Of a stretch of DNA of 64,000 nt, positions 10,625 to 34,205 are shown piece by piece. The position numbers and the translations under genes are program-made. How positions within the stretch are numbered: position 1 is the stretch's first letter; each line of letters opens with the position of its first letter. The notes under the pieces are model-generated. The model saw nothing but the letters and a program-made list of their open reading frames with translations, searched no databases and was not told the origin of the DNA. This stretch comes from Lepidodermella squamata (lineage: Eukaryota; Animalia; Gastrotricha), in contig JBLDXI010000034.1 in the NCBI GenBank assembly GCA_047495785.1, positions 558,001-622,000 on the forward strand. Reading direction: 5' to 3'.

Positions 10625-11187
10625 ATAATAGTAAAGATCGGACGCTTACGATCCTCCCATAGTGTCAAAATTTTAGGGTGCAAAGGTCACCATGTGCACA
10701 GCCACATATTTGTGCTTTTTATTTGAGGCATGTGCGCTTAGCTAAATGCATGTAAAATCGACCAATTTTAAAATAAATTTTTCCGATCTTTACTATTATC
10801 TATGCTGCAATTATTACCAATTACTGATTACTGAATTCGCTCATCGCAATGTGATGCGATTACAAAAGAGCTGATATATTTATCTGTCAAAGAATTAGTT
10901 ATCTTCCATTCAGCAAAAAGCAACTGTTTCGCTTTTCTCGGGAATCGGGAATTGCGAGATAAAAAACTGCAAAAAAGTCGCGGAAAAGATAAAATCTGAG
11001 CAAGACGGTTCTACCGGCACCCCTGATAAATACATTTTTTACTAAATAAAAAGCCCAACATACTGGCTGATATGTGATATGATAAGACGAGCTCCTCATC
11101 GCCGCAAATTGCTTTATTTCAAGCTTTTATCTTGTTCTCTGTTTCGCAAGGCCTGTTTTTCGTCTCAGCCATCAAATTCAGCCAAGA

Positions 11188-13227
11188 ATGAATAATATGG
11201 ATCCAAAGACGCATCAATCTATGTCAGGATTCACTTTTGTTAAAGACTTGTATAATGGCCGCCATCGGAAATCTGTTTTACACAAACTGAACGGCACCAA
11301 TCAAGAGCGAGTGGTCAAAGAAACCAACTTGACAACCCTTCGCAGGGAATTTGAAAAAGACTTCGATAGAATTGTTGAACTTCTGAACGAAAGAGTGAGT
11401 TTTAAGTTCTACGACTTGAAGATTTTTGATTCAAAATTATAACATGGGTAGTGAGGTAACTTCAATGAAAAAGGGGGATTAACGGCCGGCGGCCGGCTAA
11501 CTCCCAGAATTTATGTAACAAGTATATTTTCAAATATCGCAGAATTCGCTAATGGTCAGTATCACCCACGCAAACATAGCCAAGATTTACAACGCTTTCG
11601 AAGGTTTGCAATCCAGTTTTTCGATACAAACATAGCTAAACGATTTTCGAAATAGGGGAATTCCAAGGTTCTCGCATAAGATACTTAGTGATGGAGTTTT
11701 GCGATGGTGGAAGCTTCGAAAGCCTAATCAAGACTGAGACTCGACCCATCCCGGAAATTATGCTTCAAATCTGGTCGCGCCAAGTCGTATCAGCTTTGGC
11801 TTACCTTCACGGCCGGAGTATCGTCCATCGAAACATAACGACAAGCAATGTACTGCTAACAGAAGGCCGCGGCACAGCGAAACTTGCCGATTTTGGAATC
11901 ATCGAGAAATTAGACATCGAGAAGTTTTACAATCAGCATTCACTCAGTATTTTCCATTCTAAACAGTTTTCCATTCTAAACAGTGGTTCGCAAATGTTTA
12001 AGCTAGCTAATTGGAACACCTCCCCTCCTGAGGTAATAAATCATGAGGAATTTCAGCGTAAACCGAAATCCCCTGCAAGTGATGTTTGGTCATTGGGATT
12101 TGCGATCTTCAAGTTGGCCAACTTCAAAGAACCAGTATGAGATTTAACCTACGTGATTAGTTCTTTTTGAGAAACCTTAATCATTTTCCAGTTCGAATCG
12201 ATGCCCGATATTACTAGGTAAACCAAGAATTTAATGCAGTGTACAGTGATCGCAAGCTGATATTTGTAATGTTTCAGTAATAAACTGAAACCATTTGACG
12301 AATCCCGGGGATATTCCAATGAATTGCGTGGTTTTGTTATGCTAATGCTCGCTGTGAATCCTGGTGATCGACCGACCTCAAGTCAGCTTGAAGCCAGCAG
12401 TTTTCTGCAGATATCAGCACCCATGCAGTATACAAAGGTTTGATGAGTTTTCCATGCCATCTGAATTGTTGCATCGTTGTTTTTATTCTCCAGCCAGATC
12501 TATCAGTCGTTCGACCCAATCAAAAGGCTGTCAAGGTAGCTGCAGATTATTTTAAACTTCATCCAAGCGCTATAGAAATTTAAATTACCAGGAGCTGTTT
12601 GACTGCGTAGTGAAGCGAAAAGACTTGTGGAAATTGGTGCAACTGCTGTTGAACAGCGAACTAAGTCTCAGCCCAGACTGCAAAGACAAAGAGGGGTGTC
12701 CTCTGCTGTACCTTGCTGCTCGGAATGGCTACAGCGACATTGTGGAAACTCTGGCTGGGCAATTCAAGGCAGACGTTGAAGTTTGTGACAAAAATGGCGC
12801 GACGCCGCTTTGGATCGCCGCCTTCAATGGCAACACTGAAATGACGAATCTGTTGGTTAGCGAGTTCAAGGCCGATGTTAATTCTGCCAACAAAGACGGT
12901 GCGACGCCACTGTATGTCGCAGCCCAGAATAACAAACTCGAGGTGGTGACGATGTTGGTTGGCACGTTCAAGGCCGACGTGAATAAGGCCGCAAATGGCC
13001 GTACGCCACTTTTTATAGCTGCCCAGCAGGGCCACGGCGAGGTGGTAGAGGCACTTGCTGGCCACATAGACGCCTCGGTTAATGATGCAAACAAAGCATT
13101 GACTGAGGCCGCTGGTAAGAAACATTTCTATGTTGTCGCTATCTTGTTGACGAAATTCGGAGACAAAATCGATGTCACTGCCAGACACAATGCAATCGAA
13201 AAATACCTTTCGGCGATTAATACTTAA
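11188..13227 (+). CDS. Protein kinase-like (probable pseudokinase) domain fused to C-terminal ankyrin repeats, multi-exon
   Basis: Exons give VVKE...HANIAKIYNAF...YLVMEFCDGGS...YLHGRSIVHRNITTSNVLL...AKLADFG...PPEV...SDVWSLG (first intron 11395-11542). Short exons at 12190-12540 lead to the ankyrin exon 12592-13227 (GATPLWIAAFNG, GATPLYVAAQNN, GRTPLFIAAQQG). The linker exons are uncertain. Confidence 0.8.
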
Positions 13228-13352
13228 TACTCAGCCATCGGAATAAATTTGGCGCCACTTGCCGGGGTAACGCATAAAATCACGTGCCTTCAGAATGAAC
13301 GCTGGAAATGTTGAAAAATGCATACTTCTTTATTTTATCCATTATTCACAAA

Positions 13353-13410
13353 AGGCGATTCACAAACTCGTGTTTACCACATGAATGATGCAAAAGATTG
13401 TTTGCAGGCT
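13353..13410 (+). mobile_element. Terminal fragment of the repeat family found at 34281/35851
   Basis: GGCGATTCACAAACTCGTGTTTACCACATGAATGATGCAAAAGATTGTTTGCAGGCTC matches the left end of the element at 34281 almost exactly. Confidence 0.85.
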
Positions 13411-14152
13411 CGCGCACTGTCGCTGCCTCCAATGGCCACATCGGGGTGGTGATGATATTGGCTGATAAGTTCAAGGCCAATGTTAATTCTGCCAGCATAG
13501 AGGGCGCGACGCCACTCTTCGTCGCCGCCCAGAATGGCCACATCGATGTTGTGACGATGTTGGCTAGCAAGGCCGACGTGAATATTGCCGAAAAAGATGG
13601 CCGAACGCCACTGTGGACGGCCGCCTACAATGGCCACGTCGAGGTTGTGAAGATGTTGGCAGACATACGAATCCATGCCGAAGTTAATTCCGCCGGCAAC
13701 GATGGCACCACGCCACTGTTTGTCGCCGCCCATAATGGCCACGTTGAGGTGGTTGATGCGTTGGCTGGCGAGTTCAACGCCGACGTGAATAGGGCCGATA
13801 AAGATGGCCGTACGCCACTGTACATCGCAGCCAAGGAGGGCCACGTCGAGGTGGTAAAGGCGCTAGCAAATAAATAGCCAACGTGAATACTGCAAAGAAT
13901 AATGGTTGGACGCTGCTAATGGCAGCCGCATATCATTTCCGTCACGGTGTTGTTGACCTCCTCATCACGGAATTCCGAGTGAACTTCAGATTTCGTTATA
14001 ATGCATTTAAAGCTTTAGATTTGGCTGAGAGACGCGATGCAAGCGATGATTCTGCCGCTGACAAGCGCAAGACTATCGAAATATTAAGTAGATTCAAAGA
14101 GCAAAGAAGTAGATTCGATTTTACTGACTACACATCAGGGGAGCTACGATGA
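13411..14152 (+). pseudogene. 5'-truncated ankyrin-repeat gene fragment paralogous to the kinase-ankyrin C-terminus
   Basis: About five ankyrin repeats (GATPLFVAAQNGH, GRTPLWTAAYNGH, GTTPLFVAAHNGH, GRTPLYIAAKEGH). It begins directly after the TE fragment with no ATG and has a stop/frameshift at 13875-13883. Confidence 0.75.
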
Positions 14153-14598
14153 TTGTAGCGGTTACACATCCAGTTATTATTTATCTCAGTACCCTCATCC
14201 ATATATTTATTTCCACGCGCGCCCTCGTAACATAAAAACCTTCAATATTTGCCACCTCAATCAGTTATTAGAATGTTCTTCTAAATCCTTGTGCTTCATG
14301 CCTTCCAACTTAACAATCGCTGTTATATTTGTAAATATTCGAATCGTAGGGTTATCATAATCTGCTGTCGAATCAAGCTGCTTTGCTGATCTATCAGACT
14401 GTATGCCATAATATAATCAATTTAACCTTTGATTTAAGCCATTACTAGCAATTCTGGGGCCGATGTTGTCGCCATCTGTTGTGGGCCATCCGATATTGTC
14501 GCCCTGTTAAAAAATAAAGCAACCACAAAGAATGCAAATTTCTTGGAAGCAGTTAACTTATCTGATATAGTAATCAAGCCGTTCCATGTGTTTCATGT

Positions 14599-14837: not shown

Positions 14838-15880
14838 CTAATTCGACAGTAGCTTGTCCTGATTACGACGAAGGAAAGCCAAATCATTTGACTCAACCTT
14901 GAGCCAGGCATCCACGATGTACTGCTGAAACAGTTTGCTGTATAGATGTATTATAGGCATGCCACGGATAAACATGCGATGCTGTATGATGTAATCTCGT
15001 GCGGAAACTTTACTATTCTTCTGATTATGATTCAGATTAACTCCACGCATGGTGATATCCCAACCCAGATCACCAGACGGGAAGAGAATAGGGTAACTAA
15101 GAGGATCATAACAGGCATGTGTTTCGTCAATGCGTTGTAGCGGACCGCCCTTGAGACGTAGAACAATGTCACGATGTGAACACTCGGCAGACTCATCATC
15201 GCATGCGATAGCTGCAACCTCGTCGTCAGCTGATTGCGGCGCATTGTAACGACGGCGATCAAGGCCGTTAACGCTTGCTTTGATTTCGCAGCGTTCTTTC
15301 AGGAGCTTGACGCAAAATATTCAGACTGTAGTCATAAATTCTCACAAATGGATTGACATCACGCAACATGGCTTACAAATTCGTCAAGACGACCGTGTCT
15401 ATGGAATTTTCCGAGCCTTATTGATAATTCTTGCGAATCGCAACTTGATCCGAGGTTGATTGCACGAATTAAACTTGCATATAATATCTCGGGTCAGTTC
15501 CATCATCTTGTAAGAGGGCTCCGAGTGGATGGTAAAGAGCGCCCTGCATCTTGAAAGCTCCAAAATTCGGCGTAACGTCCTTGCTACCAAGTGAATAGAA
15601 GGAGAGGCAGTTATTGTATTTACAATCGTTTGATAGAAATTGAGAAGACTGATGACCGAATTGTCCGCTAAGTAACCGATGCAAGTACGGCGGTGGCTCT
15701 TTAATTTGGTCTAACAACACCTGACCGTGCTGACAACAGAGCGAAAATTGGGGCGTAAGTTGAGACGACTTGGATAAACGCTCGTCCATGAAGTGAAGGG
15801 CATCACAGTGTTGGCAAGTAACATCCATTAAGCCGAGATCATAAGGTGGTACGGCATCTTCGAGGTATGGAGCCATAGCA
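14838..15880 (-). mobile_element. Degenerate Helitron RepHel N-terminal fragment
   Basis: LGLMDVTCQHCDALHFMDE...FSLCCQHGQVLL...KYNNCLSFYSLG...FKMQGALYHPLGAL (15876-15469) and KLFQQYIVDAWLKVESNDLAFLRRNQDKL (about 14940-14850) are characteristic RepHel N-terminal motifs. The frames are interrupted, and no Rep catalytic or helicase motifs are seen. It may extend to about 16380. Confidence 0.88.
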
Positions 15881-17408
15881 GATCCGACTTTAGGTTTCCA
15901 ATTCCCTCTGTTAATAACTGGTGGAAGTGCAGGCGGTTGAACATAATCCGGGTTCTCGTGTAAAACCTGGTCGAAAAAGTCTTGTGGAAGGTTTCCAGTT
16001 GCGCTTCATAGTCCACATCTACTATAGCAGCAAACTCTCTAATGGCAGCATTAAGAGCTGCTCCTTCTTCTTCCAAAGGTGGTGGATCGACTATCAAAAT
16101 CAGAGGATGGTTAACAACCTGAATGTGAAATATTCAATTGATTGCATCTTAGGAGTGCATAGTAAAACAAACCTGCGATGCATAGCTATGATCGTGTGCG
16201 TTCGGCACAGGCACAGGTTCCGGCTCGTTTTCCGGAGAACCTTGATGATGAAGATGATGGAACTGATGATGAAGCAACGGAAGAGGCACTTCAGCTTGTC
16301 TGCGACGATTCCGCGGTTCACTGGCCCCAGTCAAAGACTTTCCACGGTCTCGAGGACGACCGCCAGGCGGCGTTGAATTAATTAATATTAACGGAATGTC
16401 TATTCGTACGTAGTGTGTACGCGAAAATTGCTATTCGTACATAGTTTCGATGTGCTTTTTTCTAAGATTTGCTCAAAGCTCGGCTTGCTCAATTTTCATC
16501 CCATCAATCTATTTTTTTGCGTGCTGATAGCTGACCATCAGGCCTATCTCCCCTCAAAAAATCACCATTGAACCCCTTAAGGTAGATTCGCAAAATGGCA
16601 TTATTTGAATTGTTTTTCACGACCCTAGCGTGAATATACTTTGGAAGATAATCTGACGAAATTTGACCACTAGACTTTTGAGCTGGGGATACCTCGGTCA
16701 TTCCCTCAGCATATAGTCCAAAAAAATATCGCTATTAATATAATAATTTACTAAATTAGGTGATATTTCCTAAGGATCGCGCATCAGCGCGCTTTTTTGA
16801 GAGAATTGGCGCATTTTTAAGTGCGAAACTGCAAGAAATGACAGCTGAGCTGAATCTATAAGGCGTTTAGTCACCTGCGAGCGAAACGAGCTTAAGTTGG
16901 CGATATTTTCGTGAATTTTCGACCTGGAAGAGGCTAACAACCAATACCGACTCATTATTCTCTATTCTAGCGTACTTCCGCACAAACTCATTCCCTCATT
17001 CTAACAATTTTGGAAGGCGTACACTCAAACGAAACATTTAAACAAACTCGGCCAGCCCAACTTACATCTTGGTAACCACTGACTAAAACTGAATAAAAAT
17101 TGAGAAAAATGGTTGTAGGCGAGCGAAGCGATCCAAAAAAATTGGGTTTCAAGCAACTAAATCAGTTGAGAATGGTCAGGAAAATGATCTCCAATCCAAG
17201 AATGAGCCTTGCCGCAAAATCGCGGGAAACTTGTCCAAGTACTCTGTGAATATTGTCATTCTTTCAGCCGGCCGAACTGGGAGTACCGTACTCCCAGTCT
17301 CCCCGCTACTTCTCTCACTCTCACAATTTTAATATCAATAATTTAATAATTTAAAAATCCCAAATTTCCCTCGTTTTGTTGGCGTCGTCCGGGGCTGTGT
17401 TGTAAAAG

Positions 17409-17610: not shown

Positions 17611-17922
17611 AAGTTTGATTTTTGCTATAAATGGCCTTTTACAGCCATCGATGTAACCCGACCGAGGTTTTGCGCACACTATTCCTCTTTAAGGTTCAGG
17701 ACAAACACTTGAACCGGATGATGGTGTCTGAGTGAAGAATGAAGAGAGAAGCGAGTGCATTAGCTCTAAAATTACGCATTAATACACTTATCAGTCAATG
17801 ATGCTCAGTCGAGTGCTTTAGCTCAAAAAAGCAGACCGATCAATAAATCTGTAGTTATTCATGCACAAGCTGCTTTAAAGTTAGATAGTTCTACTTTTCA
17901 CTCAGCTCTAATAATTTGAAGC

Positions 17923-19269
17923 ATGGAAAACAGTGAAGGACAACAACAGAAAGCTACAACCTACTGCAAGGTAAGAATAAAGAATAATCGCTGGCAATTT
18001 GATTCGGCACTGCATCTGCCAATTTCGTTCACAGGTATGTGGCAAAGTTGTTCCGTCGAGGGCGCAATATCAGCCGCGGCAATGCAACGCCTGCCATGTA
18101 AACTTCGTCTCATTTATAATGTTTCAAATTTTGTGGTTAATTCTTCAGAAATTTTTCAATCGACAATCGAAACGAAGATTCGAAATTAAATGCATCACTG
18201 GGAAGTTTGACTGCGAGATATTGCAAACTCGTGGTGGCTGCACCCGTTGTCGTCTTGAGAAATGCTTTAAATCTCGTCACAGAAAATGTAGGTCAATTTG
18301 ACAGGCAGCAAATTTGTGAAAATTCGGAATTTTAAGGGCAAGAGGTAAATATGGAAAATGAGACCATCGACAATTCAGAGTCAGACCAAATTAGTTCGAC
18401 CATAATTGTCGACCCCGAAGACCCGTGCCGTTTTGGTTTGGTTGAAAAAGTGACCAGAAACTCAATCTTGGGACTAACGATTCTACACGATTTAGACTCG
18501 GTACGAATGCATCCGACAATTCGATGAAATTATCCGCCTTTCTAGGTTCCGTTACGAAAACGGGATCGGCCCTATGGAGATATTAGGATGTTGGTCGAAG
18601 ACTTTAGCATTCATCATTTCGGAAATTTTTACAATACAAGTTGCAAATTCGCTGGGTGCATGAGAGGTAGTTTATCTTCCTAATTCCTAAAACTCCTCAA
18701 CAGCGACATTTTTTCTTCTAGATGCGTTCTCATTGTCTGATTCTGATCTGAATGCAGCATTGGCCACAGCGTGGGGGCCAATAGCTTTTGCTTTTTCATC
18801 TCTACCGAGTAACCAAAGTGCGATTTCCATCAACAACGCTGTTCTCCCGCAATTTCTTACAATTTTTCCAGAATATATGGTAAGCTTTATGGCGTATTCC
18901 AACTTGACAAACAAACATTTTTAGCCGATGATCGAGCTTTCAAAGGAGCTTTCGGGCTTGATAAATTGCTGGAAACCTTCAATGCCCGAATTCGCTTTAG
19001 TTTTAAGTTATTTATTCCTCAATGGTAGGCGATTTCTTGATCTAACTTTTTTTAAATTTCCGTCTCCATTTACAGGAATAAGGAATCCTCGCTTAGCTCA
19101 ACTTTCAAGACTCGTGAAGCACTCTCTGACAGCCTTGCCAATCTCAGCTTCACGAGAAGGCGTTGAAAGCTGCTGCAACCGAATCGTAGAAATTGTGGGC
19201 CGTGTTTCGAGAATAGCACCGAATATTATTAAAACTACAGTCGCTCGCCATGATTTTAAAATGTTATGA
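17923..19269 (+). CDS. Divergent nuclear hormone receptor, copy B (C-terminally shortened)
   Basis: Same exon structure as copy A. The DBD reads CKVCGKVVPSRAQYQPRQCNACH|KFFNRQSKRRFEIKCITGKFDCEILQTRGGCTRCRLEKC. It ends ARHDFKML*, lacking the terminal segment present in A and C. Confidence 0.87.
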
Positions 19270-19389
19270 CTAGGTTCAAGTAGAACCTAGATTAATCTGA
19301 AAACTGTTGATAGATTCTAATCGGCTTTTTGCCTACCAACACCCAGAATCTTTATTTTCTAAAATATGCTGAATATGTTCTTGAAAATC

Positions 19390-19720
19390 TCAATAAAGGG
19401 TTCTTAGTTTGCCATTGCAAACCCGACTAGTAGTACGTAGTACGGCGAAAACCGAAAACCGTTTGCCATCGAATTTCTTCATACACTTCTCGTAGCTTCG
19501 ATTGCTGTTAAGTGCCACTGCCTTGCCCATCGCCCCGCCGTAGATATCCATCGCATACTCTTGTTTAGCTGCTTTAGAATCCGCATAAACATCTGCCATC
19601 ATTCGAAGCAATCCTATGAACAGAGAAAATCAATGTTTTATTTTGCTGAATGGTTAGGAGAGGAAACTTAGGAAAATGATTTTTTTCTTTTACCGGCCTT
19701 CGGTTGATTTTTTGGCCATT
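19390..19720 (-). pseudogene. Secreted two-Cys peptide family member P0, 5'-truncated pseudogene
   Basis: Exon 2 (LLRMMADVYADSKAAKQEYAMDIYGGAMGKAVALNSNRSYEKCMKKFDGKR...RVCNGKLRTLY*) is nearly identical to 23814-24031. The splice donor reads CTAAGT instead of GTAAGT, and the signal-peptide part is replaced by ankyrin-derived DNA from about 19722. Confidence 0.8.
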
Positions 19721-19721
19721 C

Positions 19722-21148
19722 GATGGCGTGAATGCTGCAAGTTACGATGTTTCGACGCCGTTGATGGCAGCCGTAAATCGAAGCCATCACCGTGTTGTTG
19801 ATGTTCTCCTCACGAAATTCTGAGACAAAATCAAAGCCGAGGATCGCGGGAGCGCGCAGCGCAGGAGACCACGTGGCCGATTAGTCGTCTTCGGGCCAGA
19901 AAAAGGATTTCTCAGTAGTTTTTCTCAGTGGTTTTTCTCAGTAGTACTGAGGAATTCTCAGTAGTTGATTTTCAACATTGATAGAACGATACAGCAATGA
20001 TATTTCCACAATTTCGCCTTTGGCTGCTTATCTCTCTTTATTTGAGTGCCTCCGGAGGTTTTGAATTAACAGCTCTGCTGGAGGACGATGGCTTGAACGA
20101 GGAGGAGGAAGAGTACAGGGCATCAATCGCTTCATTTTCGGACGGGTATTACGACATCTATGAGTCTCTCCAACCTGGCATAAGCTTCGTCGCGAAACAA
20201 CGCGATCAAGGACGAGCATACTGGTCGCACCATGCACTCCCTAACGAATTATTTCCCAATCTCCTACAACATCCTCCACGATTGGACGATTCACGCTGCT
20301 GAGTTTGCAATTGAACCGACCGTTTCGGAGCGACTTTTCCGTGACGCTTTCCAGGTATGGCTCGGTTTCAAGGATCAATTCGAGAAGGTTGCTGACGACC
20401 AGTGGTTGTGGGTGAAGCCCGGGTGGACCGTTCTTCAAGTAGTCAGTGAAAGCCGAGTCGATGGCAATTGGAAGTCGCTGAAACATTTCGAATGCGCGCT
20501 CGAGTTTGTTCACCTGTTAACTGCCGATAGAACGATTGATAGAGTTCGTTGCACGTGTCGCGATGGAACGAAGAAGAAGCCCTGCTGTCATGCGTTGGCT
20601 TTAGCCCACGAGCTCAAATGTTGAGCCAGCTGAGTTCGGCGAAGAAGAAGAAGACGACACGGCAGCGCGTTTCGAATCCGTAGTTACGGTTACTGCCAAG
20701 CCTGCGAGCCGCGGTCGAGGTCAACATCGCGCCCTAGGATCAACTGCTTCGATTCCTACTGGTCGCGTCACCCGAAGCAAGGTCAGTTCGTCTGTCATCG
20801 AAGCTGAAGCTACTGGCGATCAATCAGTGAAAGCTGCTGCTCCCGTTCGTGTTGGCAAAAGGCGTGGCCGTCCTCCGAAGCGTGGTTAAGCGTTTCGCCG
20901 AAAAAAGACATTTCAGTCGAGTAAAAGGATATTGAGAGGGAAATAAATAATTTCGTGAGAAAAGAGATATTTTTATTACTCCGATAGATTCCGACGGTAG
21001 AAGATATTTTGTTCCGCGTAGCAGAGACATTGTTCCGATAGAAACATCTATGGCCCGCGAAGAAGCCTTGCAGTTGGCCAAGAACTGCCCTGCAAGTGAT
21101 AACAGGGACAAGACTATCGAGATACTCGAACGTAGAAAATCTTCATAA
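19722..21148 (+). pseudogene. Ankyrin gene 3' relic split by a MULE insertion
   Basis: 19722-19848 (VNAASYDVSTPLMAAVNRSHHRVVDVLLTKF*) and 21056-21148 (REEALQLAKN...RDKTIEIL) are collinear with 13883-14090 and rejoin in frame (AEDREEALQLA) when the insert is removed. Confidence 0.75.
19849..21055 (+). mobile_element. Internally deleted MULE/Mutator-like transposase relic with SWIM zinc finger and AT-hook
   Basis: IYESLQPGI and NNAIKDEHTGR (MULE C-terminal catalytic region, frameshifted), SWIM motif CTCRDGTKKKPCCHALAL (about 20550-20605), and KRRGRPPK at about 20857-20880. Short subterminal repeats (TTCTCAGTAG; TTCCGATAGA). Flanked by CGCG at 19845-19848 and 21056-21059. Confidence 0.75.
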
Positions 21149-21262
21149 TTTTGCCGCCTTGCTCATATTTTTGTTCGACGAACTGTTGAGAATTTTTTTC
21201 ATATATCTAGTTTTTTAATCATTTTGTCATTACACATTACGGTTAGCCTGCTTGAGTTGAGC

Positions 21263-21826
21263 ATGGCATCAGGGTTTGATTGATCGAAGTCAGATTTCAG
21301 GGTTATTAGACCTTTGTGTTATGGATCTCTACGGAAATCTACATTGTGTGCGAACGTAATGGATGCCCTGAGGAGCAAGTGGTTATCAAACAAACAAACT
21401 TCGCAGACCTTCGCCAACGATTTGGAAAAGACTTTGACCATATCGCGCGATTGCTTCAAGATAGAGTGAGTTTTCTACTTGAATTATTCATTAAAGCAGT
21501 TGAAATGAGATGAGACGAAAAATGTGGGCTTATCCGATGGGAAGCCGGCCTTATCTGAGAATTTACAAACTATTTTTCATTCGCAGGATTCGCGAATGGT
21601 CCGTATCAGCCATACAAACGTAGCCAAGATTTAAAACGCTTTCGAAGGTTTGCAATCCAGTTTTTGATATCTAAGATTAGCGAAAGGTTTTATATCGTAG
21701 AATTCGAAGGTTCTAGCATGAATTATTTGGTGATGGAGTTCTGCGATGGTGGAAGCTTCGAAAGCCTGATCACGACAGAGACTTCACCCATCCCGAAAAT
21801 CATGCTTCAAATATGGTCCCGCCAAC
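21263..21826 (+). pseudogene. Truncated pseudogene copy of the kinase N-lobe exons
   Basis: Collinear with 11221-11783, including intron positions (EQVVIKQTNFADLRQRFGKDFD; YLVMEFCDGGSFESLI...MLQIWSRQ). In-frame stops at about 21281 and 21632. Breaks off after WSRQ. Confidence 0.85.
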
Positions 21827-21904
21827 ACGCCAACTCCAGGAGCGATTCAAACTTTGAGTTTAGGAATGAGCATTGGTTGGCTGTGTTATATACCTAAGTT
21901 ATAG

Positions 21905-22015
21905 GTAATACTCATGACTTGAGCATTGAGCACCAGTGTGTGGTGAAGACCCAAAAACTGTGAGCAATAGGCACTAGGCAATAAGCAACGAGCAATGAGT
22001 ATTGAGCATTGAGGT
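21905..22015. repeat. Degenerate ~7-bp tandem repeat (TGAGCA(A/T))
   Basis: TTGAGCATTGAGCA...TGAGCAATAGGCACTAGGCAATAAGCAACGAGCAATGAGTATTGAGCATTGAG. Probably a TE subterminal array. Confidence 0.55.
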
Positions 22016-22305
22016 GGTCATTTGTGCGACAGCCTTTATACAACCTCCGATGTAACCCGACTGAGGTTTTGCGCATAATACTCCCCGACCAGGTAAAATC
22101 ATCTTTTAGGTTAGGACAATGCGGATGCTGCAGTCTGAGTGAAAACATTACTTTACAATAACGCATTAATACACCTATCACTCAATGATGTACAGACGAG
22201 TGTTTTAGCTCATAAGAGCAGACCGATCAATAAAGCCGTAGTAGTTGTTCATAAAAATAAGCCGCTTCAAAGTTAGATAGTTCTGCTTTCAACTCAAAAG
22301 TCAGC

Positions 22306-23718
22306 ATGGAAAACAGTGAAAGACAAAAACAGAAAGCTACAACCTACTGCAAGGTAAGAATAATCACTGGCAATTCGATTCGGCACTATCATTTCGTTCA
22401 CAGGTATGTGGCAAAGTTGTTCCATCGAGGGCGCACTATCAGCCGCGGCAATGCAACGCCTGCATTGTAAACTTTGTCTCATTTATAATGTCTATTCTTT
22501 TGTGGTTAATTCTTCAGAAATTTTTCAATCGACAATCGAAACGAAGATTTGAATTTAAATGCATCACTGGGAAGTTTGACTGCGAGATAAAGCCGGGGCG
22601 AACTCGTGATGGCTGCACCCGTTGTCGGCTTGAGAAGTGCTTTCAATCTCGTCAAAGACAATGTATTTCATTGATTTTGATTGACAACAAATTTGTGAAC
22701 ATTTTCAGTTTTCAAAGGGCAAACTGACTGTTCAAATACGGAAAATGAGGCCATTGGAACTTCTGAATCAGACCAAGTTAGTTCAACCATAATTGTCGAC
22801 CCCGAAGACCCGTGTCGCTTTGATTTGGTTGAGAAAGTGACCAGAAATTCAATTTTGGGATTAACGATTCTACACGATTTAGACTTGGTAGGAATGCAAT
22901 TGTAAATTCGACGAAATAGCAAATTTATCCGCCTTTCTGTTAGGTTCCTTTACGAAAACGGGATAGGCCGTATGAAGATATTAGGATGTTGGCCGAAGAC
23001 TTTAGCATTCGTCATTTCGGAAATTTTTACAATACAAGTTGCAAATTCGCTGGGTACATGAAAGGTAGCTTCTCTTCCTAATTTCTAAAAGGGGATCAGT
23101 AAAACATTTTCTCTTCTAGATGCGTTCTCGTTGTCTGATGCTGATCTGAATGCCGCATTGGCCTATGGATGGGGACGAATGGCTTTTGTTTTTTCATCTC
23201 TACCGAGTAACCAAAGTGCGATTTCCGTCAACGACGTTCTTCTCTCGCAATTTCTTACAATTTTTACAGAATTTGAGGTAAATTCAAGCTTTATATCGTA
23301 TTCTAACTTGAATATTTTTCAGCCGATAATCGAGCTGTCAAAGGAGCTCTCGGGCTTGATAAACTGTTGGAAACCTTCAATGCCTGAATTCGCCTTAGTG
23401 CTAAGTTATCTATTTCTCAATGGTAAGCGATGTCCTGATCCAAATTTATTTGAATTTCCGTTGATATTTCCATCAGGAAGAACATTCCGAATAACGACTC
23501 CTCACTTAGCTCAACTTGCAAGACTCATGAAGCATTCTCTTACAGCCTTGCCATTCTCAGTTTCGCGAGAAGGCGTTGAAAGCTATTTAAGCCGAATTAT
23601 AGAAATTTTGGACCATGCTTCGAGAATAACACCGGATATTATTAAAACTACAGCCGCTCGTCAAGATTTCGCAGCACCTGAGCGGCAAATAGGCACATTT
23701 ATGGCTTTCTTCATGTAG
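22306..23718 (+). CDS. Divergent nuclear hormone receptor, copy C
   Basis: Same exon structure as A and B. The DBD reads CKVCGKVVPSRAHYQPRQCNACI|KFFNRQSKRRFEFKCITGKFDCEIKPGRTRDGCTRCRLEKC. It ends IGTFMAFFM*. Confidence 0.9.
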
Positions 23719-23813
23719 AACCTAGATTATTAAAAAAAAAATGTTCATAGAAAATAGCCTCATGTCGCACAACACCCAGAATCTTTATTTTCTAAAATAT
23801 GTTCTTGAAAATC

Positions 23814-24262
23814 TCAATAAAGGTTTCTTAGTTTGCCATTGCAAACCCGACTGATGATTTCGTAGTACGGCGAATACCGTTTGCCATCGAATTTCTTCAT
23901 ACACTTCTCGTAGTTTCGATTGCGGTTAAGTGCCACTGCCTTGCCCATCGCCCCGCCGTAGATATCCATCGCATACTCCTGTTTAGCCGCTTTCGAATCC
24001 GCATACACATCTGCCATCATTCGCAGCAATCCTAATGAACACAAAAAATCAATTTTTCATTTTTCTGAATTCCGGCTTGGAGCGGAAACTTACGAAAAGA
24101 ATTTTTTACTTTTACTGGTCTTCGGTTGATTTTTTGGCCAATATACGGATACCCATAGGCTTGTATTGCCATCAACTCAACAATGAGCATAGAGGCGAAA
24201 CAAGCTGCTACCAAATGTTGCATTACTGCGTCGACCAATAATATGGAAAACTGCAGTACCAT
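23814..24262 (-). CDS. Secreted two-Cys prepropeptide P1 (2 exons)
   Basis: Signal-like MQHLVAACFASMLIVELMAIQAYG (the start may be at 24223). Phase-1 intron 24093-24032. Spliced protein reads ...KNSFRLLRMMADVY...RNRNYEKCMKKFDGKRYSPYYEIISRVCNGKLRNLY*. AATAAA follows on the minus strand at about 23790. Confidence 0.82.
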
Positions 24263-24869
24263 AGTATGTAACTTCCAGGTGTGTTTTTAAAGTAGACCAG
24301 CACTCAACACCCACGTTGTTGATTGAACCTGTTGCGAGTTTGCTGCCCTCGGATATCCCTGGATGGCTATGTTTTTACTCGGACGATTCGAAACACCTGT
24401 TTATCATTGGGTCACGGAAGTTACAAAGCAAATTATTTATTTATAAATTCCATAATGTTTATGAAAACAGGTGAATATAATCACTCGAATGATTGCTAGT
24501 TCGTTTCAGTGAACGAAGTACGGAGGGGAAAGGGAAGCATCGAACCCGAGAACAACCGAGAAAAATCGCCGAAAAACCTCAGAGGGGACGTATTGATCTG
24601 CAAATTCAGAAATGCCCCCCAATCCGAGGATCCCACGCCGTACACTGGACCTATTTCCAAGCTTCTTGCTTCGAGGAAGTTCAACCAATTTTCAATGGCA
24701 GCTCTGAGTATGCTTGCATAGGTACAAATGTTTCCTCTGCCACATGTACCAAGGTTAAACCAGAATCTAAGAGCATTGATTTTTTTCATAATTTATTTCA
24801 AAAATGTCTCTAGCGAAAAGGATTTAAAAATAGAAATCAGTGAATGACCATGCTTTGTCAAACGTCTAT

Positions 24870-25254
24870 TCAAGACCTCCTTTGCTGCAGTTTTCTGCAG
24901 GCTCTCACTAGCGCATCGTAGTAGGGCGTGTCCTGCCTCAGAAGATCTTCAAACCTCCTCATGCATTCGATATAGCCACGATCTGATGCACTGTTAGATT
25001 TCGGGATTTCAGACCTTGGGAAAGCGCCAGATTGTACTCGCAAAACACCTGAAACAAATGAAATTGAGATTCGTTGATTATGAAGCCCTCAAATATCCTT
25101 TACGATGTTTATTCGGCTTTGGAACATCATTCGGTCGACTGTTCACATTGACACTGCCACTTTTACTTGGCATGCCAAATGCCGACAGCGCTTCAACAGT
25201 CAACAGCTGGAATAATGCAAGCACTGAAATAGCCAGGAAAACGCGCTTCGTCAT
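24870..25254 (-). CDS. Secreted two-Cys prepropeptide P2 (2 exons; absent from the ORF track)
   Basis: MTKRVFLAISVLALFQLLTVEALSAFGMPSKSGSVNVNSRPNDVPKPNKH, phase-1 intron 25103-25049, then RVLRVQSGAFPRSEIPKSNSASDRGYIECMRRFEDLLRQDTPYYDALVRACRKLQQRRS*. Confidence 0.82.
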
Positions 25255-25562
25255 CTCAAAAATGAATAAATCTTGCTTGATAGTAAGCAGCGAAAGTCGG
25301 AGATTTTCGATTTATATTGAGCGCGAACGCACACACCTCCGTTTCGCACGATATCAAGCTCCGGGGAGCTATTCCGAGGCAATGCGTGGCCACGACTACG
25401 ACTCTTTAGTGTGAAATCGATCAAACTTTTTCATCACCTTGAATCTCACAGCTGCTTGATTGCGCATTCAAGGTAAATAAAAATACATGAATAATAAGTG
25501 TTTTTTTGGTTTATTTAAAGCCCGGACAATTCACCCAGGCTCCAAGCGCACGGAATGTCCCC

Positions 25563-25995
25563 TCACACTGATGATCGGCCTTCATCGCATATTCTGGTCA
25601 TAGCTTTGTAGTGCTGTGGATTTTCTCGAAATTTATCGAACTGGCGTAGGCATTTTTTGTAGTTTCGACTGCGAAGCGCTGATATTGTTTTGCCCATCAG
25701 TCCGCCGTAGGTTTCCGATGCGAGAAGATCGTTGTCGCTTTGAGGTTTCGAAGCTGACATTCTCAACATTCCTGTTTGAAATAATACAAATAATGTTCAA
25801 TAACGAAAGATGCTTTAAAAAGCTCAGCTCACGGATATAAATTGGAGGACTTGATCTTGTCGGCGCTTTTCTGGTTGAATCTGGGTTGGAATTGGAATCT
25901 TTACCAACTGGATTGAGATAGGCCTTTTCGACCAGCGCAGCTAGAATTAGGATGAAAACAATAGTTTCCAATGAAATGTTTTGCATTTTTGCCAT
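25563..25995 (-). CDS. Secreted two-Cys prepropeptide P3 (2 exons)
   Basis: MAKMQNISLETIVFILILAALVEKAYL...PIYI, phase-1 intron 25832-25772, then RMLRMSASKPQ...ETYGGLMGKTISALRSRNYKKCLRQFDKFRENPQHYKAMTRICDEGRSSV*. TATAAAA on the minus strand at about 26044-26038. Confidence 0.85.
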
Positions 25996-27356
25996 GATGT
26001 TGGAAGTTTAGTCAATGAAATCAGCGGTTTCGAGCCCTTTTATAGGTCTCATAACCACTAATCAGGATAATGTTATATATAAATAGCTTCGATATTATTC
26101 TTCCTAATGTACTTTTATCGTCATACGCCATTCATTAATGCATGATTGCTGAATTTTCAATGATTGCCTGAGTGCGATATATACGATGGCCGATATAATC
26201 TTGCGCACTTTTTCAATTAGGAAATTTGAAATTTCAATTACGAAATTGAGATCTCGTGAAACGTCCGGACTTGGCATCGCTTTAGTAAAAAATAACGGAA
26301 TTCATTAGTGAAAATTAGATTGATGAAAGAAAAATTATAACACGACTTAATCGTGTAATGGAAGGTAAATCGGACAAAAAATATGTCAGGCTAGATTAGA
26401 TATTCGCGGAAAAAATGTGAAATTGTAGGTAGGCGAATTTCTCTCTTTCTTTGGCGCATTGTTTAATTTGGTCATTCCTAGCTATAATTTTATGAAAGCT
26501 AGTTTTAATATTATGAATATAATGCGACGATGTTTAAGGAACTATACAATTAACAATTTTAAATTCGCTCAAATCATAGATCGCGCATTACCGTGAATAC
26601 AGAGACCATAAATTTCGATTCTAAAATTTTCATTCCGCTCAAAACATTCTGAAAATTGTTATGAATGTTTATAAGGCTATTTCTGATTTTTTTCTGTGAA
26701 TTTCTGGTGTTATTTTAAAAACTCATTATTATTCAAATTTCCTGAACAACTTTCCAGATAGAAAACATGTATGCAGAGCTCGAATTTCCAACATTACGAA
26801 ATAGATTTCATGCAAACGTTCATTGTTCACCAGGGTTCGATCTTAGGACCTGGAGCTGCGTCGCGACACCCCAGTCCTGGGACTAAAACTAGAGAAAGGC
26901 TGAAAAAACCATAAGGGGACCCTTTGGTTTCTTCAGCTGGATCCTAGATAAAAAGTAGAAAACACCTCAGCTCCCGGATCCTACTTCGCACTCTGCCAGG
27001 GATGAACAATGTCTTTTGCTGAATGTGCCAAAACGACTGGAGATTTTACAAAAAACGAACGAAGCTTTTACACAATTTTGAAGATAATTTGCCACTGGCA
27101 TACACGCTCCAAAACCTCTTCCAAGACAGTGGGCTCAATTTTCATTTTCTCGTCAGATCAGACTGAGCTGGGTGGGGTACGGGAGCGGCGATACCCTCCA
27201 TCGCCCCTGAAAGTCGCACTTTTCACAACCTGAGAATTACCATGGTGTTTATTCCGCCGTTCGTCAAGAGTAAAAAAAAAGAAAAAAGAAGAAGGACACA
27301 GCCTCATTCTTGATTTCAAAACAAATGTTTCCGTAACAAATTATGTATGCTGAACC

Positions 27357-27596
27357 TCAGACATCTTTCTCCATGCAAATTTTCGCCAGCTGCTTGTAGT
27401 AAGGTTTGCCCCGAAGTCTGTCGAACTTGCGCAAGCATTGGCTTTTGTTTCGGATCTTTGCCGCTGCAATGACCTTGATAGCCAGCTCCACAGGGATCTC
27501 TGGACCTTTTGTCGTAGCGATTGCCGACGGCACCTGCTTAACATCAGCAGCCATGGACACGGCGAGAGCACATGCAAGGAAAAGAACGTAAAACAT
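27357..27596 (-). CDS. Secreted two-Cys peptide P4 (single exon)
   Basis: MFYVLFLACALAVSMAADVKQVPSAIATTKGPEIPVELAIKVIAAAKIRNKSQCLRKFDRLRGKPYYKQLAKICMEKDV*. It has the same C-L-R-K-F-D...PYY...C motif as P1-P3. Confidence 0.82.
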   Translation of the reverse strand: MFYVLFLACALAVSMAADVKQVPSAIATTKGPEIPVELAIKVIAAAKIRNKSQCLRKFDRLRGKPYYKQLAKICMEKDV

Positions 27597-29354: not shown

Positions 29355-29497
29355 ATCTAATCTCTTGGTGTTCTATAACATGTTGAATATGATTTTTTCC
29401 TAATTTTTCTGATTTTTTCAAAAACAATATGAGCACGTGCCTCGAGCCACTTTTTCACAAATGCTTCGACTCATTCATGGAAAATTAATCGTAAATT

Positions 29498-31343
29498 ATG
29501 CTCGAAAAACCTAAATGCTGGCATGGCGTGTTTCTAACATGCACAGCTCTCATTTCTCTATACGGCTTTTACTTCGCAGCAACTTCTTTGGATTTAAAAG
29601 CAACCTCTGTCAAATCAGCGTTGACTTATAAGCCCAATGTAACCAACGTCAAACCGTCCAAAACTGTACCACGTGCCCAGCTCGTTTCCAAACTTTCAAA
29701 CGATACCGTTTCAGAGCTTAGAAGATTGGCCGATTCGCTTTACTCGAACTTCTACGCTCAATATTATGACCAAGCTATTGCGGTTCAAGGCGACCCGACA
29801 AGATTCCAACAGCTCATGCTCAGATTGATTGATTCGAGCCGAAACAAGACGAAAACGCTCAATATCGGAGTGATTGGCGGATCGAATACTCACAATCGAA
29901 CCTCTGCGGTAAGTGAACTCTAAACTGATCATTACCACTTATTAGTAAACTGTTTTCAAGGTTCCGAATTATTTTTACCGGGTCTGTAGATGGTTTTCAA
30001 CGAATCTACCCGATGTCAAGGTCAATTGCGAAAATTGGGCTCTCGGAGCGACTGGAAGGTGAAGGCAATGATTTCAAGAAGTTCAATTTCCCCACTGTAT
30101 TTAACTCTTTTTAGCCCGTTTTATGCTTATTGCGCAAACCAACTGTTCAATGCAAGCAAATTCGACATAGTTTTCCTTGAATTCGCTATCAACGACGTTA
30201 AGCGAACGATATTTGCGAAAGAATACTTCCACCGCGTCATTGAAGACTTCCGAACTGCCAATCCGAATGTTTTCCTTATGAATGTTGAGATCGACCATGT
30301 TCAACGGCTTCTCGGCGTCAAATGGTTGGAAAGAACAAGTTACTGGCGATGTGAGCCCTATTTTGTGCCGCCGTATCACCGGGCTTCGTCGAGGTTTTAC
30401 AAGATACCTTCGATTCAAATGACCCATTTCTTTTGTGCGCACGATTCGAGAAACATCACGATGACATCAATGATGGGTGCGTTTAAAATTAATAATATTA
30501 TTTTCCAATTAATTTAAAATTGAAAAAATTGAACATATTTTAAAATATTTAATAAATTTCAATTTCAATTTGAAATTTCAAAAATTTCACAATTTAAATA
30601 TTGCAGATGGTTACCTATCCACGGTCGATCGGAGGCATCCAGGGGCTCTTGTCCACATTATGTTAGCAGAATTCATCGTCAATTACTTCAAGCGCGCCAT
30701 TAACGGAATTATCAAGAACGGTCCGCCTTCGAAAGCTGCGAAGACAAAATTCCAAATCAGGAAACGTCATCCTTTCTCTACGAAATGCTTCCTGTCCGTA
30801 GTTCCTCATCAATATAATCTAATCAATCGGAAACTGGATCAATCTGCGATTTTGCCAGTAGGCCAAAACATCTCGTTAGAAGAAAGGGATTTTCTCTATG
30901 CTATCAAGATGCTATCCCGGCGTAACTCTTCGTTCAGTTTCATGTTCGAAAACATAATTTCAAGCAAACCTATGGATAAGAATTCAGAGACTTACTGTCA
31001 GAAGAAGGACAATTGCTTTCTTCCTCGTTTGGTGATAATTCACAAGGCGATGGGCGTAAATCACGATGTTCTGCTGTCAATTGAAGCTACCTACATATTC
31101 TCGTCCGGATTGAATGTAAGCCAGAGCTATACGCTGAACGTTCAAGCTACGCACCGCTTCCAGACTTACGAAATACCGAAAACAGTCGGCCATCGGCAAA
31201 ATGTGTCCTGCTTCGATTCGTCCGGTGCGAAAAATCAACTCGAGGCTGTTGCATTGACTCTTCATCAGAAAAGCCATAAAATTCACTTTTTGATGCTAAC
31301 TGGAGTTGTGTTTGTCTTCGACTGTCCCGATCCTTATGAATAA
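29498..31343 (+). CDS. Type II membrane SGNH/GDSL hydrolase-like protein (4 exons)
   Basis: N-terminal TM/anchor. Block I IGVIGGSNT, block II GATGSPFYAYC (across an intron), block III DIVFLEFAIND, block V DRRHP. Introns at about 29909-29960, 30059-30115 and 30477-30607. Confidence 0.8.
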
Positions 31344-31691
31344 ATTCTAATTACTTGATTTGAGACAATTTTTGAGTAACTCATGTGACTGTGATATCGA
31401 TAGCAGGCCAAAATGTCTAGGTCTAATTAAAATAATTGCCTAGAAGAATGCGAGGTCAATCCCGTTTCCCAAGCGCAAGAGGAGAAACGTCTGCGGTGTG
31501 AGGCTCGATTTAGTAATGATTCGCGCGCTTCAAAATTAGCATGTAGGGGTTGGTGTGTGATGAACACTGTTCGCTTTTAATTGCAAATTACCGCTATCAA
31601 CTTGCGGCTTGAAAATCGAGGCCTAGGAGTGGTTTATAAAGTTTCCGAATTCGCATTCTGAGGGACTTGAATCCTAATATTTGGACAAATA

Positions 31692-34205
31692 ATGCTGAAC
31701 CTTTTCTCCACTATCTTTCTGATGGTCTTAATACTAAGGTCTGACCCTGCTCGAAGCTCGGTCCTAAACAAGCCATACACCTTGAAGATTCCGGTAACAC
31801 TTCCAATTGGAGGTCCTATAGCACCCCTAGGCAAAATGTGTACGGAATCGATTGAACTATTCCTTCGAATCATCAATAACCGAAGCGACATACTGCCCGA
31901 CTACAACTTGGTCGTAGATTTGGTCGACGATCAATGCCGAGCTACGGCGGCAGTATCGCGTCTGATGCCGTTCTTCATCGACGGCAAACGAACAAGTGAA
32001 TTTGGCACTATCGGCCACCATTTTCTACCCAGTGGAGCTAGGTTCACGAGAAAATCTGCGGAGATCAGCTATATACCTCCGTTTTTGACTGGGTCGATGT
32101 GCTCTGGGGTTTGCAAAGTCATTTCGAGATATGCCCAGCTTTTCGACTTCATAAATGTAAGATACCTGGATCTTCCTTCAAGCTTAATTTCGTTCTATTC
32201 AGTTTTCAGCAGCTTGTAACGATGCGACCCTAGCCGATCGGAAGTTGTACCCCAATCTGTATCGAATAATGTCGACAAACCAAGTCATTACAACGATGAT
32301 GCCTTTTTTGAAGATGATGAACTGGCGAAAAGTTGCCGTCATTTCTGACATTTCCCCTTCGATTTTCCAAACATCGAATTCGATGATAAACGATTTCCCT
32401 AAGAACAACATAACCTTTTTGGCTGTTGAGTTTTTCATCGATGATCCATTAGAAGCTGTTAGTCGGGTCAAAGCAAGTGGTGCCCGGATCATTGTCGCTA
32501 ATTGCTACTACGAAACATGCCCAGTTGTTGCCTGTCAGGTAATTAGACGTTTTTAACACCAAAGATATACTATTTTTACCAATATTTGTAGGCATTTCTT
32601 CAAGGGCTTTACGGTCCTAATATAGTCTGGATATTTCCTGGTTCAACAGATTTCGTGAATTTCAAGCCACTACCGGATGGCTGCTCAATATCAGACCTTC
32701 GAACCATTGACTACGGCTCAATGTACTTCCGCCAGGTGCCAAACGACTACAAATCTGGCCAAACCGAAATAGGAATAACTGGGCAGCAGCTCGACGATTT
32801 CTTCACGCAAAATGTGCCCGGTGTTTGGCAGGACCCGCTTGTCGATTCGAGGTACATGTGTCTCGACAGCGTCATGCCATCAGCTTTTGTACTGGACGCT
32901 GTTGAAAAGGAGCTGAACTCGCAAAATTCATCAATTCGCTTCCAAATTGCAGACGAAGCTTCGAATTCAGCTCTAAGCGAAATAATTCAGGAGAAAATTA
33001 AGAATTTGAATATTCGCGCGTTCTCCGGGCGAATTCGGTATCAAAATGAAGATCAGGAAACTCTGGTACCGACCGGCTATGAACAATCGCAGGAGAATGG
33101 AACGAGACGCATGATTTTCGTCGACAATGGGGTTGACTCTTTCAACGAATCGCTTCACTACCAATTCAAAGCTCCATCAATTTGGAAAACTTCGAATGGA
33201 AAATCGCCGAAAGACGAAGTGGGCTATGTCGAAAGCCTGGAACTTCTATCTTATCCAGCTGTCATTCTAATTGATCTAACCTCGAGCTTGCTAATCGCAG
33301 GATCTTTAGTTTTGATTGCCTTCCTTTTGAAATCTCGAAATGATTCTAGATTTCGAAAAGATGAAACATACGGCAGTATCGCTCTGATTGTTGGCTTGAT
33401 ATTATGTCTAACTGCTATCCTTATTCACCCAATTCAATCAACAGCCTCTCTTCAAATGGTCTACTTCTGTGCGACAGCTCCAGTTCTAGTTTCTATTGGC
33501 TATTCTTTGATATCAGTTGGCCTTTTCTCAAGGATTCGAAGCTCCAACAAATTCAGTCAAACTTCGACTCTCACGAGGATTACTAAGAGCTACGATTCCC
33601 GTTTGAACCTGAAAACACAGCGAAGTTCCATGAAATCTGTCAGATTTTCAAAGACGAACTCGCCCAGATCGAATTACTACACCGCATGCACGTGGGTTGC
33701 AGCTAATGCGGCTATTTTAGTACTGTGGTACGCTGTTGGCTCCGTGCCAACTGTTCGCGAGATATCGCAATCGCGCTTCGATTCGTTCAACGACGTGATT
33801 TTCTTAGAAATTTCCTGGACTTGTACTACGACCGGAGAACCGGACCGGCTAATGTCGACGGCTATTTTCGGCGGATGTCTAATCGCTATGAACGGACTAG
33901 CGCTGCTCGCTCTATTCGTCCTGGCCTTGATTAGGAGTCAAACGAGAGACGATGAGATGAAACGTACTGTTCGATGCCTCTACGTCTTGGTCCCGTCAGC
34001 TATTGCCCAGGTTCTAGCGGTTTTGGTGTTCAATGAACCTGAGCCTAAATTCTATTTTCTGAGCCTAGCTACCATAGCAACAAGTTGCATCATTTTAGCG
34101 AATCTTTTCGCTGGGAAGCATACATTATTACGTCAGCAATTGGTGAACAATTCCCTGGTAATTCGCAGTCTGGCGCTTAGTAGATCAACTACTACTACGA
34201 GATAA
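31692..34205 (+). CDS. Class C GPCR, GABA-B-receptor-like orphan (GPCR1; 3 exons)
   Basis: Signal peptide, then Venus-flytrap motifs INNRSDILPDYNL..DDQC, LADRKLYPNLYR, NWRKVAVI and GLYGPNIVWIFPG. WKTSNGKSPKD linker with no Cys-rich domain, then seven hydrophobic segments. Introns 32157-32202 and 32539-32591. Confidence 0.88.

What the first reader, a model, noticed from the sequence alone, without database searches (positions are those of the whole stretch)
19390..27596. Unassigned family of five small secreted cationic two-Cys (pre)propeptides
Seen: P1-P4 and pseudogene P0, all on the minus strand, share a C-terminal motif C-[ML]-[RK]-[RKQ]-F-[DE]-x4-6-P-x-[YH]...-C with 19-21 residues between the cysteines in P1-P4. 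P1-P4 also carry a signal peptide. P1-P3 share a phase-1 intron inside the first Arg of a conserved R-x-L-R motif (RLLR, RVLR, RMLR), although their pro-regions are unalignable. Established: R-x-x-R is the minimal furin-type convertase site. Inference: these are processed, disulfide-closed helical-hairpin peptides (hormone, pheromone, toxin or antimicrobial). I do not recognise them as a known neuropeptide family.
Basis: partly seen in the sequence, partly recalled or inferred. Interest (0 to 1): 0.78.

Follow-up and report, generated by a model that had tools for sequence, protein, structure and literature searches.

The report
Orphan secreted three-helix peptide family
Four neighbouring genes and one broken copy in an unidentified invertebrate genome encode a family of small basic proteins with two conserved cysteines and no detectable relatives; they are likely secreted and cut into predicted three-helix, single-disulfide peptides that most likely act as signals, but no function has been tested.

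Summary
The family is real. P1-P4 (79-128 aa) and the broken copy P0 lie on the minus strand. Their C-terminal parts are homologous (6 of 6 pairs, z 8-22); the pro-regions are not. A probable RNA run skips the P2 and P3 introns exactly (one contig each, short anchors). P1 versus P0 shows 5 synonymous and 2 replacement changes in 50 codons. R-x-L-R is the only R-x-x-R site ahead of the cysteine core, and P4, which lacks a pro-region, starts in the same register. Corrections: the predicted products are 55-68 aa mini-proteins, modelled with three helices rather than as a short hairpin; they are only moderately basic (P2 core neutral); the motif as written fits 3 of 5 copies. No relative was found in Pfam, PDB, 1.84 billion proteins, metagenomes or folds, but this genome is poorly sampled. 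The closest described analogue, Triangle DREP, fails on cysteine spacing and intron position; CHH/ITP and ALKAL fail on cysteine number. Best reading: lineage-specific secreted signalling peptides (0.45); defence peptides next (0.25). The scan had not noted this family elsewhere.

The parts
27357..27596 (-). P4: single-exon gene, 79 aa; hydrophobic N-terminus (about residues 1-16) joined directly to the family domain; no pro-region, no RxxR
   Evidence: ORF, hydropathy 3.05, Cys 54 and 74; X1 contig covers 27355-27401; AATAAA 104 nt past the stop
25833..25995 (-). P3 exon 1: predicted signal peptide and pro-region
   Evidence: TATAAAA 49 nt upstream of the ATG
25772..25832 (-). P3 intron, 61 nt, GT..AG, phase 1, inside the first Arg of RMLR
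   Evidence: skipped exactly by one X1 contig, shorter side 28 letters
25563..25771 (-). P3 exon 2: rest of RxLR and 65-aa predicted mature peptide, Cys 20 apart
   Evidence: X1 contigs cover 25527-25768; AATAAA 48 nt past the stop
25104..25254 (-). P2 exon 1: predicted signal peptide and pro-region
   Evidence: TATAAAT 62 nt upstream
25049..25103 (-). P2 intron, 55 nt, GT..AG, phase 1, inside the first Arg of RVLR
   Evidence: skipped exactly by one X1 contig, shorter side 23 letters
24870..25048 (-). P2 exon 2: 55-aa predicted mature peptide, Cys 21 apart, first helix region shortened
   Evidence: AATAAA 73 nt past the stop
24094..24262 (-). P1 exon 1: predicted signal peptide (start at 24262 or 24223) and basic pro-region
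24032..24093 (-). P1 intron, 62 nt, GT..AG, phase 1, inside the first Arg of RLLR (predicted; splicing not seen)
   Evidence: same position and phase as the P2 and P3 introns
23814..24031 (-). P1 exon 2: 68-aa predicted mature peptide, Cys 19 apart
   Evidence: pN/pS about 0.10 against P0; AATAAA 25 nt past the stop
19390..19718 (-). P0: broken copy of P1; lacks the signal-peptide part of exon 1, has no GT donor, and has two small indels between the Cys
   Evidence: lies at the end of a 2.1-kb duplication 17634-19718 / 22001-24140

Best explanation
These genes form a lineage-specific family of small proteins that are likely secreted, likely trimmed by a furin-type protease at R-x-L-R, and predicted to fold as three short helices closed by one disulfide, and they most likely act as extracellular signals (hormone-, paracrine- or pheromone-like) on a receptor. 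Shown: the genes, the homology of their C-terminal parts, two spliced introns in one probable RNA run, constraint on the P1 coding sequence. Inferred: signal-peptide removal; cleavage after RxLR in P1-P3 (P4 would need only signal peptidase); a Cys-Cys bond holding helices 2 and 3, with Phe, Tyr and an aliphatic residue as core and a basic surface patch for binding. Untested: target, tissue and activity.
For: Prepropeptide layout with a drifting pro-region and a conserved C-terminal part. RxLR is the only R-x-x-R ahead of the core in 3 of 3 genes with a pro-region, and is kept in P2 although the neighbouring residues do not align with P1 or P3. All 3 donors have C at -1, which keeps the split codon Arg. 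The first Cys lies 40 and 37 residues after the site in P1 and P3 and 38 residues after the assumed signal cut in P4; P1 and P4 align without gaps over 63 residues. P4 core model: pLDDT 86, helices 2-13, 17-27, 33-42 of 45. Purifying, not diversifying, change between P1 and P0: 5 synonymous, 2 replacement, p = 0.004; exon 95% identical against 84% for intron and flank. Low hydrophobicity (GRAVY -0.28 to -0.96) and a neutral P2 core fit a ligand better than a lytic peptide. A size- and fold-alike family of putative neuropeptides exists (Triangle DREP).
Against: No receptor, expression site or peptidomic evidence. Most invariant residues look structural, so conservation does not single out receptor binding. 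The site is R-x-L-R without a basic P2 residue, a minimal furin site (established knowledge), and there is no shared amidation signal. An invariant Arg five residues before the first Cys offers another possible cut giving 30-35 aa. Tandem duplication, 25-37% identity between paralogues, a dead copy, pI 9.5-9.9 and amphipathic helices are as typical of defence or gland peptides. The splice evidence is one contig per intron with 23 and 28 letters on the short side, in one run whose RNA status is a guess. The selection test rests on 7 changes. The P1 model is weaker (pLDDT 68) and its first two helices nearly run together.
Confidence: 0.45

Rival explanations
1. Host-defence peptides: the processed, basic, amphipathic helices bind and disturb microbial surfaces, and the pro-region keeps them quiet until cleavage.
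For: Net charge +4 to +8, pI 9.45-9.88, hydrophobic moments 0.42-0.80 in helices 2 and 3. Birth-and-death tandem array. Neighbours include kinase-ankyrin, CAP and a fibrinogen-domain fragment.
Against: Hydrophobic fraction only 0.29-0.43; the P2 core is neutral; the P1/P0 pair shows purifying selection. No Pfam match. No matching family in the one antimicrobial literature search (listing only).
Confidence: 0.25
2. Gland products aimed at another organism (prey, host or mate): venom-like, salivary or seminal peptides, with RxLR as a maturation signal as in oomycete RXLR effectors.
For: Signal + variable pro + compact disulfide domain on its own phase-1 exon is the layout seen in cone-snail venom genes (passages). 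The motif is exactly RxLR, some 30 residues after the signal. One ectatomin chain has outer Cys 21 apart (my count from Table 2).
Against: Lifestyle unknown. In venom families the mature region usually varies most; here it is the conserved part. The window is animal (nuclear receptors, class C GPCRs), and a 2018 paper states that no RxLR-like effectors were reported in plant nematodes. P4 has no RxLR.
Confidence: 0.15
3. A shortened, diverged offshoot of a known hormone family, most plausibly the N-terminal third of CHH/ITP, with the two remaining cysteines paired anew.
For: In CHH-L an aromatic residue (Phe16) stands 7 before the second Cys (Cys23), as the invariant Tyr does here. Forms with and without a pro-peptide coexist in that family, as P1-P3 and P4 do. 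Four-Cys CHH relatives exist. Further residue matches are recalled, not from a call.
Against: Two Cys instead of six; 19-21 residues between them instead of 15; CHH has one continuous helix there and pairs C1-C5 and C2-C4; its ancestral intron is phase 2. No Pfam, PDB-sequence or profile hit.
Confidence: 0.1

Closest known systems
Triangle DREPs / Triangle doppelganger toxins (Koch et al. 2023, PMC10501145)
   Same: Secreted, 59-65 aa, two Cys, three predicted helices, one phase-1 intron, putative signalling peptides of protostomes.
   Different: Triangle Cys are about 45 apart and enclose all three helices, the first sits in C-G-x-N-P just after the signal, the intron lies between the Cys and the spacer is C-terminal (my count). 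Here the Cys are 19-21 apart, the intron and pro-region lie upstream of both.
CHH/ITP/MIH superfamily and HAND toxins (PMC8541221, PMC7560641)
   Same: Helical, disulfide-held, 60-80 aa, with or without a pro-peptide; aromatic residue 7 before the second Cys.
   Different: Six invariant Cys (C1-C5, C2-C4, C3-C6), dibasic site next to the mature N-terminus, 15 residues between C1 and C2, phase-2 ancestral intron.
ALKAL1/2 (FAM150, augmentor) ligands
   Same: Secreted, variable N-terminal region, basic C-terminal disulfide-stapled helical hairpin that activates a receptor. A local residue resemblance to P4 is recalled only.
   Different: Four Cys and two disulfides; no sequence or fold hit.
Oomycete RXLR effectors
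   Same: Signal peptide followed by RxLR and a small helical domain (recalled; motif discussed).
   Different: Animal genome, intron inside the motif, Cys pair in the mature part, one member without the motif.
Nematode-specific peptide (nsp) families of C. elegans (PMC3534327)
   Same: Lineage-restricted families of small secreted peptides of unknown function.
   Different: No sequence match in any search; the organism here is not shown to be a nematode.

Membership tests
Triangle DREP | Two Cys, three helices, about 60 aa, secreted | tested here: met
Triangle DREP | C-G-x-N-P start and about 45 residues between the Cys | tested here: not met
   19-21 residues here; Data Sheet 10 sequences counted by eye
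Triangle DREP | Phase-1 intron between the two Cys | tested here: not met
   intron lies 25-40 residues upstream of the first Cys
CHH/ITP superfamily | Six (or four) conserved Cys with C1-C5, C2-C4, C3-C6 pairing | tested here: not met
   two Cys in each mature part; definition
CHH/ITP superfamily | Fold similarity to solved CHH/MIH/HAND structures | tested here: inconclusive
   not listed in the fold searches; small helical models give only generic rows
ALKAL/FAM150 | Four Cys, two disulfides in the C-terminal domain | tested here: not met
ALKAL/FAM150 | Fold match to ALKAL structures | tested here: inconclusive
   not listed
Furin-processed prepropeptide | R-x-x-R between pro-region and mature domain | tested here: met
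   3 of 4 intact genes; P4 has no pro-region
Furin-processed prepropeptide | Cleavage at the site in vivo | not testable with these tools
   needs peptidomics or co-expression with a convertase
Cationic amphipathic antimicrobial peptide | Positive charge and amphipathic helices | tested here: inconclusive
   +4 to +8, moments 0.42-0.80, but hydrophobic fraction 0.29-0.43 and neutral P2 core
Cationic amphipathic antimicrobial peptide | Microbicidal activity | not testable with these tools
   bench assay
Oomycete RXLR effector | Oomycete genome context | tested here: not met
   nuclear-receptor zf-C4 and class C GPCR genes in the window

The most novel reading that the evidence does not exclude
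A new class of three-helix, single-disulfide peptide hormones whose maturation site is built into an exon junction, and whose receptors are the five divergent Venus-flytrap class C GPCRs that begin 4 kb away: a co-expanded ligand-receptor locus, with protein ligands for a receptor class known mostly for small molecules.
Probability: 0.07. Interest if true: 0.8.

Novelty: new variant of a known kind. Interest (0 to 1): 0.45.

Why it matters
It is a compact, synthesisable, single-disulfide helical scaffold with no match in the libraries searched, and the anatomy gives exact products to look for (about 7.9, 6.5, 7.4 and 7.0 kDa). If the peptides are ligands, they add a signalling family to a poorly sampled animal lineage; if antimicrobial, a new helical framework. 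The surprise is limited: lineage-specific families of small secreted peptides are common in invertebrates, and even a 778-residue GPCR from this window had no relative in the word search, so the blank partly reflects sampling.

Tried and rejected
No whole genome is held, so copies elsewhere in the genome were not searched. Pfam: no hit at E 0.001 for the 7 family pieces or the 6 cores (two weak rows, DUF4969 E 0.074 and TACI-CRD2 E 0.089, not pursued). Word search with A1: 8 candidates, 0 at E 1. Profile search of 1.84 billion proteins: 1 hit, P0001 (E 3e-5), rejected as a 370-aa repeat protein matching 15 profile positions with Cys 6 apart. ESM Atlas: no usable hit for 2 of 2 queries. PDB sequences: 3, 1 and 0 rows at E up to 10, best 0.17. 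Fold searches: no Foldseek match at E 0.001; best Z 5.9 (rmsd 3.3, 59 aligned) and 5.1 (rmsd 2.1, 44 aligned), generic helical rows; CHH, ALKAL and ectatomin not listed, which excludes nothing. Metagenomes: 0 of 170 and 1 of 111 stretches passed; L001 rejected as a 15-residue match just after a stop, without the first Cys. No run on record as RNA was listed. X1 has no cover on P1, which is not evidence. X2 may be the window's own source and is not independent. Taxon: two protein searches found nothing; the organism remains an unidentified invertebrate, nematode-like in its gene families, though 2 of the 3 family acceptors are not TTTCAG. YGG[AL]M in P1 and P3 recalls enkephalin (recalled) but has no flanking basic sites and is absent from P2 and P4; rejected. 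Anti-LPS factor (20-residue Cys loop, recalled) is a beta-hairpin; rejected. No complex prediction was run: neighbourhood alone was no ground for one. Ten literature searches showed no description of this family in their listings; they match words, not sequences, and miss most subscription papers. The FASTA supplements of PMC10501145 could not be read and may hold further Triangle-like sequences.
Full report
Observation. The region was read on the minus strand and gene models were built by script. P4 is a single exon, 27596-27357, 79 aa. P3 is 25995-25833 plus 25771-25563, 123 aa. P2 is 25254-25104 plus 25048-24870, 109 aa. P1 is 24262-24094 plus 24031-23814, 128 aa, or 115 aa from the second Met. 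P0 (19718-19390) is a broken copy of P1: its similarity starts after the signal-peptide part, it has no GT donor, and two small indels lie between the cysteines. The hexamer C[ML][RK][RKQ]F[DE] occurs 5 times in the window against 0.01 per shuffle (100 shuffles). Cys spacing is 19-21.

Are they genes? Of 2 runs listed, none is on record as RNA. Run X1, guessed to be RNA, has one contig that skips the 55-nt P2 intron and one that skips the 61-nt P3 intron, both at the predicted GT..AG ends, with 23 and 28 letters on the short side; X2 spans 23949-26925 unspliced and identical. The anchors are short and come from one study, but both joints were predicted beforehand. P2 and P3 have a TATA box 62 and 49 nt upstream, and 4 of 4 intact genes have AATAAA 25-104 nt after the stop. 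Over the first 50 codons of exon 2, P1 and P0 differ at 5 synonymous and 2 replacement sites (pN/pS about 0.10, p = 0.004); the exon is 95% identical, intron and 3' flank 84%.

Anatomy. The predicted mature parts are homologous in 6 of 6 pairs (z 8.1-21.8, 0 of 1000 shuffles each); the pro-regions in 0 of 3; the mature N-terminal parts in 1 of 6 (P1-P3). Six columns are invariant: Arg, Cys, Phe, Pro, Tyr, Cys. RxLR is the only R-x-x-R ahead of the core in P1-P3, and all three donors have C at -1, which keeps the split codon Arg. The first Cys is residue 40, 25 and 37 after the site in P1, P2, P3 and residue 38 in P4 if its signal is cut after residue 16, which I assumed. P1 and P4 align without gaps over 63 residues. 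So P4 likely reaches by signal cleavage alone the N-terminus that P1 and P3 would reach at RxLR: the best indirect support for the site. The signal ends of P1-P3 share A-[YF]-x-x-P. The products are 55-68 aa, charge +4 to +8, pI 9.45-9.88, GRAVY -0.28 to -0.96; the stretch between the Cys has charge 0 to +6. AlphaFold2 on four-sequence alignments gave three helices for the P4 core (pLDDT 86, pTM 0.55) and a weaker P1 model (pLDDT 68). The Cys fall early in helix 2 and late in helix 3, on the faces that carry Phe, Tyr and the aliphatic residue; the disulfide is inferred from this, not measured.

Surroundings. P0 arose with a 2.1-kb duplication that also holds a divergent nuclear-receptor-like gene on the other strand; a third copy at 5254-7060 keeps only the 3' end. 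Five class C GPCR genes lie at 31.7-61.4 kb. Nuclear receptors, CAP and these GPCRs show an animal. An earlier, unreviewed note called the genome nematode-like; I could not confirm the taxon.

Relatives. None was found in Pfam, the word search, 1.84 billion representatives (the single hit rejected, 32-34), the ESM Atlas, PDB sequences, folds, metagenomes or the scan's own notes. The blank is weakened by poor sampling: a neighbouring GPCR also had no hit among 7998 candidates.

Mechanism. Most likely: secretion, removal of the pro-region by a furin-type convertase, folding into a small three-helix domain with one disulfide, and binding of a receptor through the basic surface (0.45). For it: conserved mature part, purifying selection, modest and variable charge, low hydrophobicity. 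Against it: no receptor or tissue data, conservation that is mainly structural, a tandem birth-and-death array, and basic amphipathic helices that fit defence peptides (0.25) or gland products (0.15). A remnant of CHH/ITP is possible (0.10).

Comparison. Triangle DREPs match in size, helix number and disulfide count but differ in Cys spacing, first-Cys motif and intron position (PMC10501145: passages, supplement list and all of Data Sheet 10 seen; PMC13311285: passages and section 2.6; PMC13542836: passages). CHH/ITP needs six Cys (PMC8541221, PMC7560641: passages). ALKAL needs four (PMC10605310, PMC11743138: passages; PMC12017499: passages, nothing used). Ectatomin's Cys spacing was counted from a table (PMC13486460: passages); its hairpin fold is recalled. 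RxLR-like effectors were unreported in plant nematodes in 2018 (PMC6029430: passages). Orphan small secreted families are common in C. elegans (PMC3534327: passages). The family works like a disulfide-held helical prepropeptide and is a member of none of these on the features tested.

Verdict. Observation confirmed with small corrections; interpretation partly supported; a new variant of a known kind; interest 0.45, since the family is real and unmatched but of a common type, in an undersampled genome, with function untested.

Noticed in passing
window 31671-34205 +, 39760-42126 -, 42889-45420 -, 51891-54550 +, 58736-61391 +: Five intron-poor, divergent class C GPCR genes (ANF_receptor and/or 7tm_3 hits), two duplicated pairs among them; no relative found for the one searched.
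   Followed up: partly
window 22320-23718 +, 48546-49895 -, about 54900-56284 -; copies at 17634-19718 and 5254-7060: Divergent nuclear-receptor genes (zf-C4 hits) with an unusual P-box region; the 22-24 kb copy faces P1 tail to tail and was duplicated with it.
   Followed up: partly
window 11086-14357 + and 19730-21900 +: Kinase and ankyrin-repeat ORFs in a row, and a decayed similar copy that X1 joins across a 1212-nt insert carrying a SWIM zinc finger, probably a transposon; this copy abuts the truncated 5' end of P0.
   Followed up: partly
window 47905-48330 -: Small protein with a hydrophobic N-terminus and four near-identical Cys-rich repeats (C-x-S-Y-F-D-C-F-x-x-D-K-C); weak DUF7107 match.
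   Followed up: no
window 46230-47772 -: CAP-domain gene with an N-terminal duplicated Cys-rich module and a Pro-rich linker.
   Followed up: partly
window 45657-46070 -: Short three-exon gene that looks like a Ly6/three-finger GPI-anchored protein by eye.
   Followed up: no
window 29495-31343 +: Predicted membrane-anchored protein with a weak GDSL/SGNH-like match (E 0.058).
   Followed up: no
window 14838-16005 -; 34840-35307 -; 26850-27000: Helitron fragment, reverse-transcriptase-like remnant by eye, and a very high-copy short repeat between P3 and P4 (depth above 9000 in X2).
   Followed up: no
window 62381-63924 +: Long ankyrin-repeat gene running off the window end.
   Followed up: no
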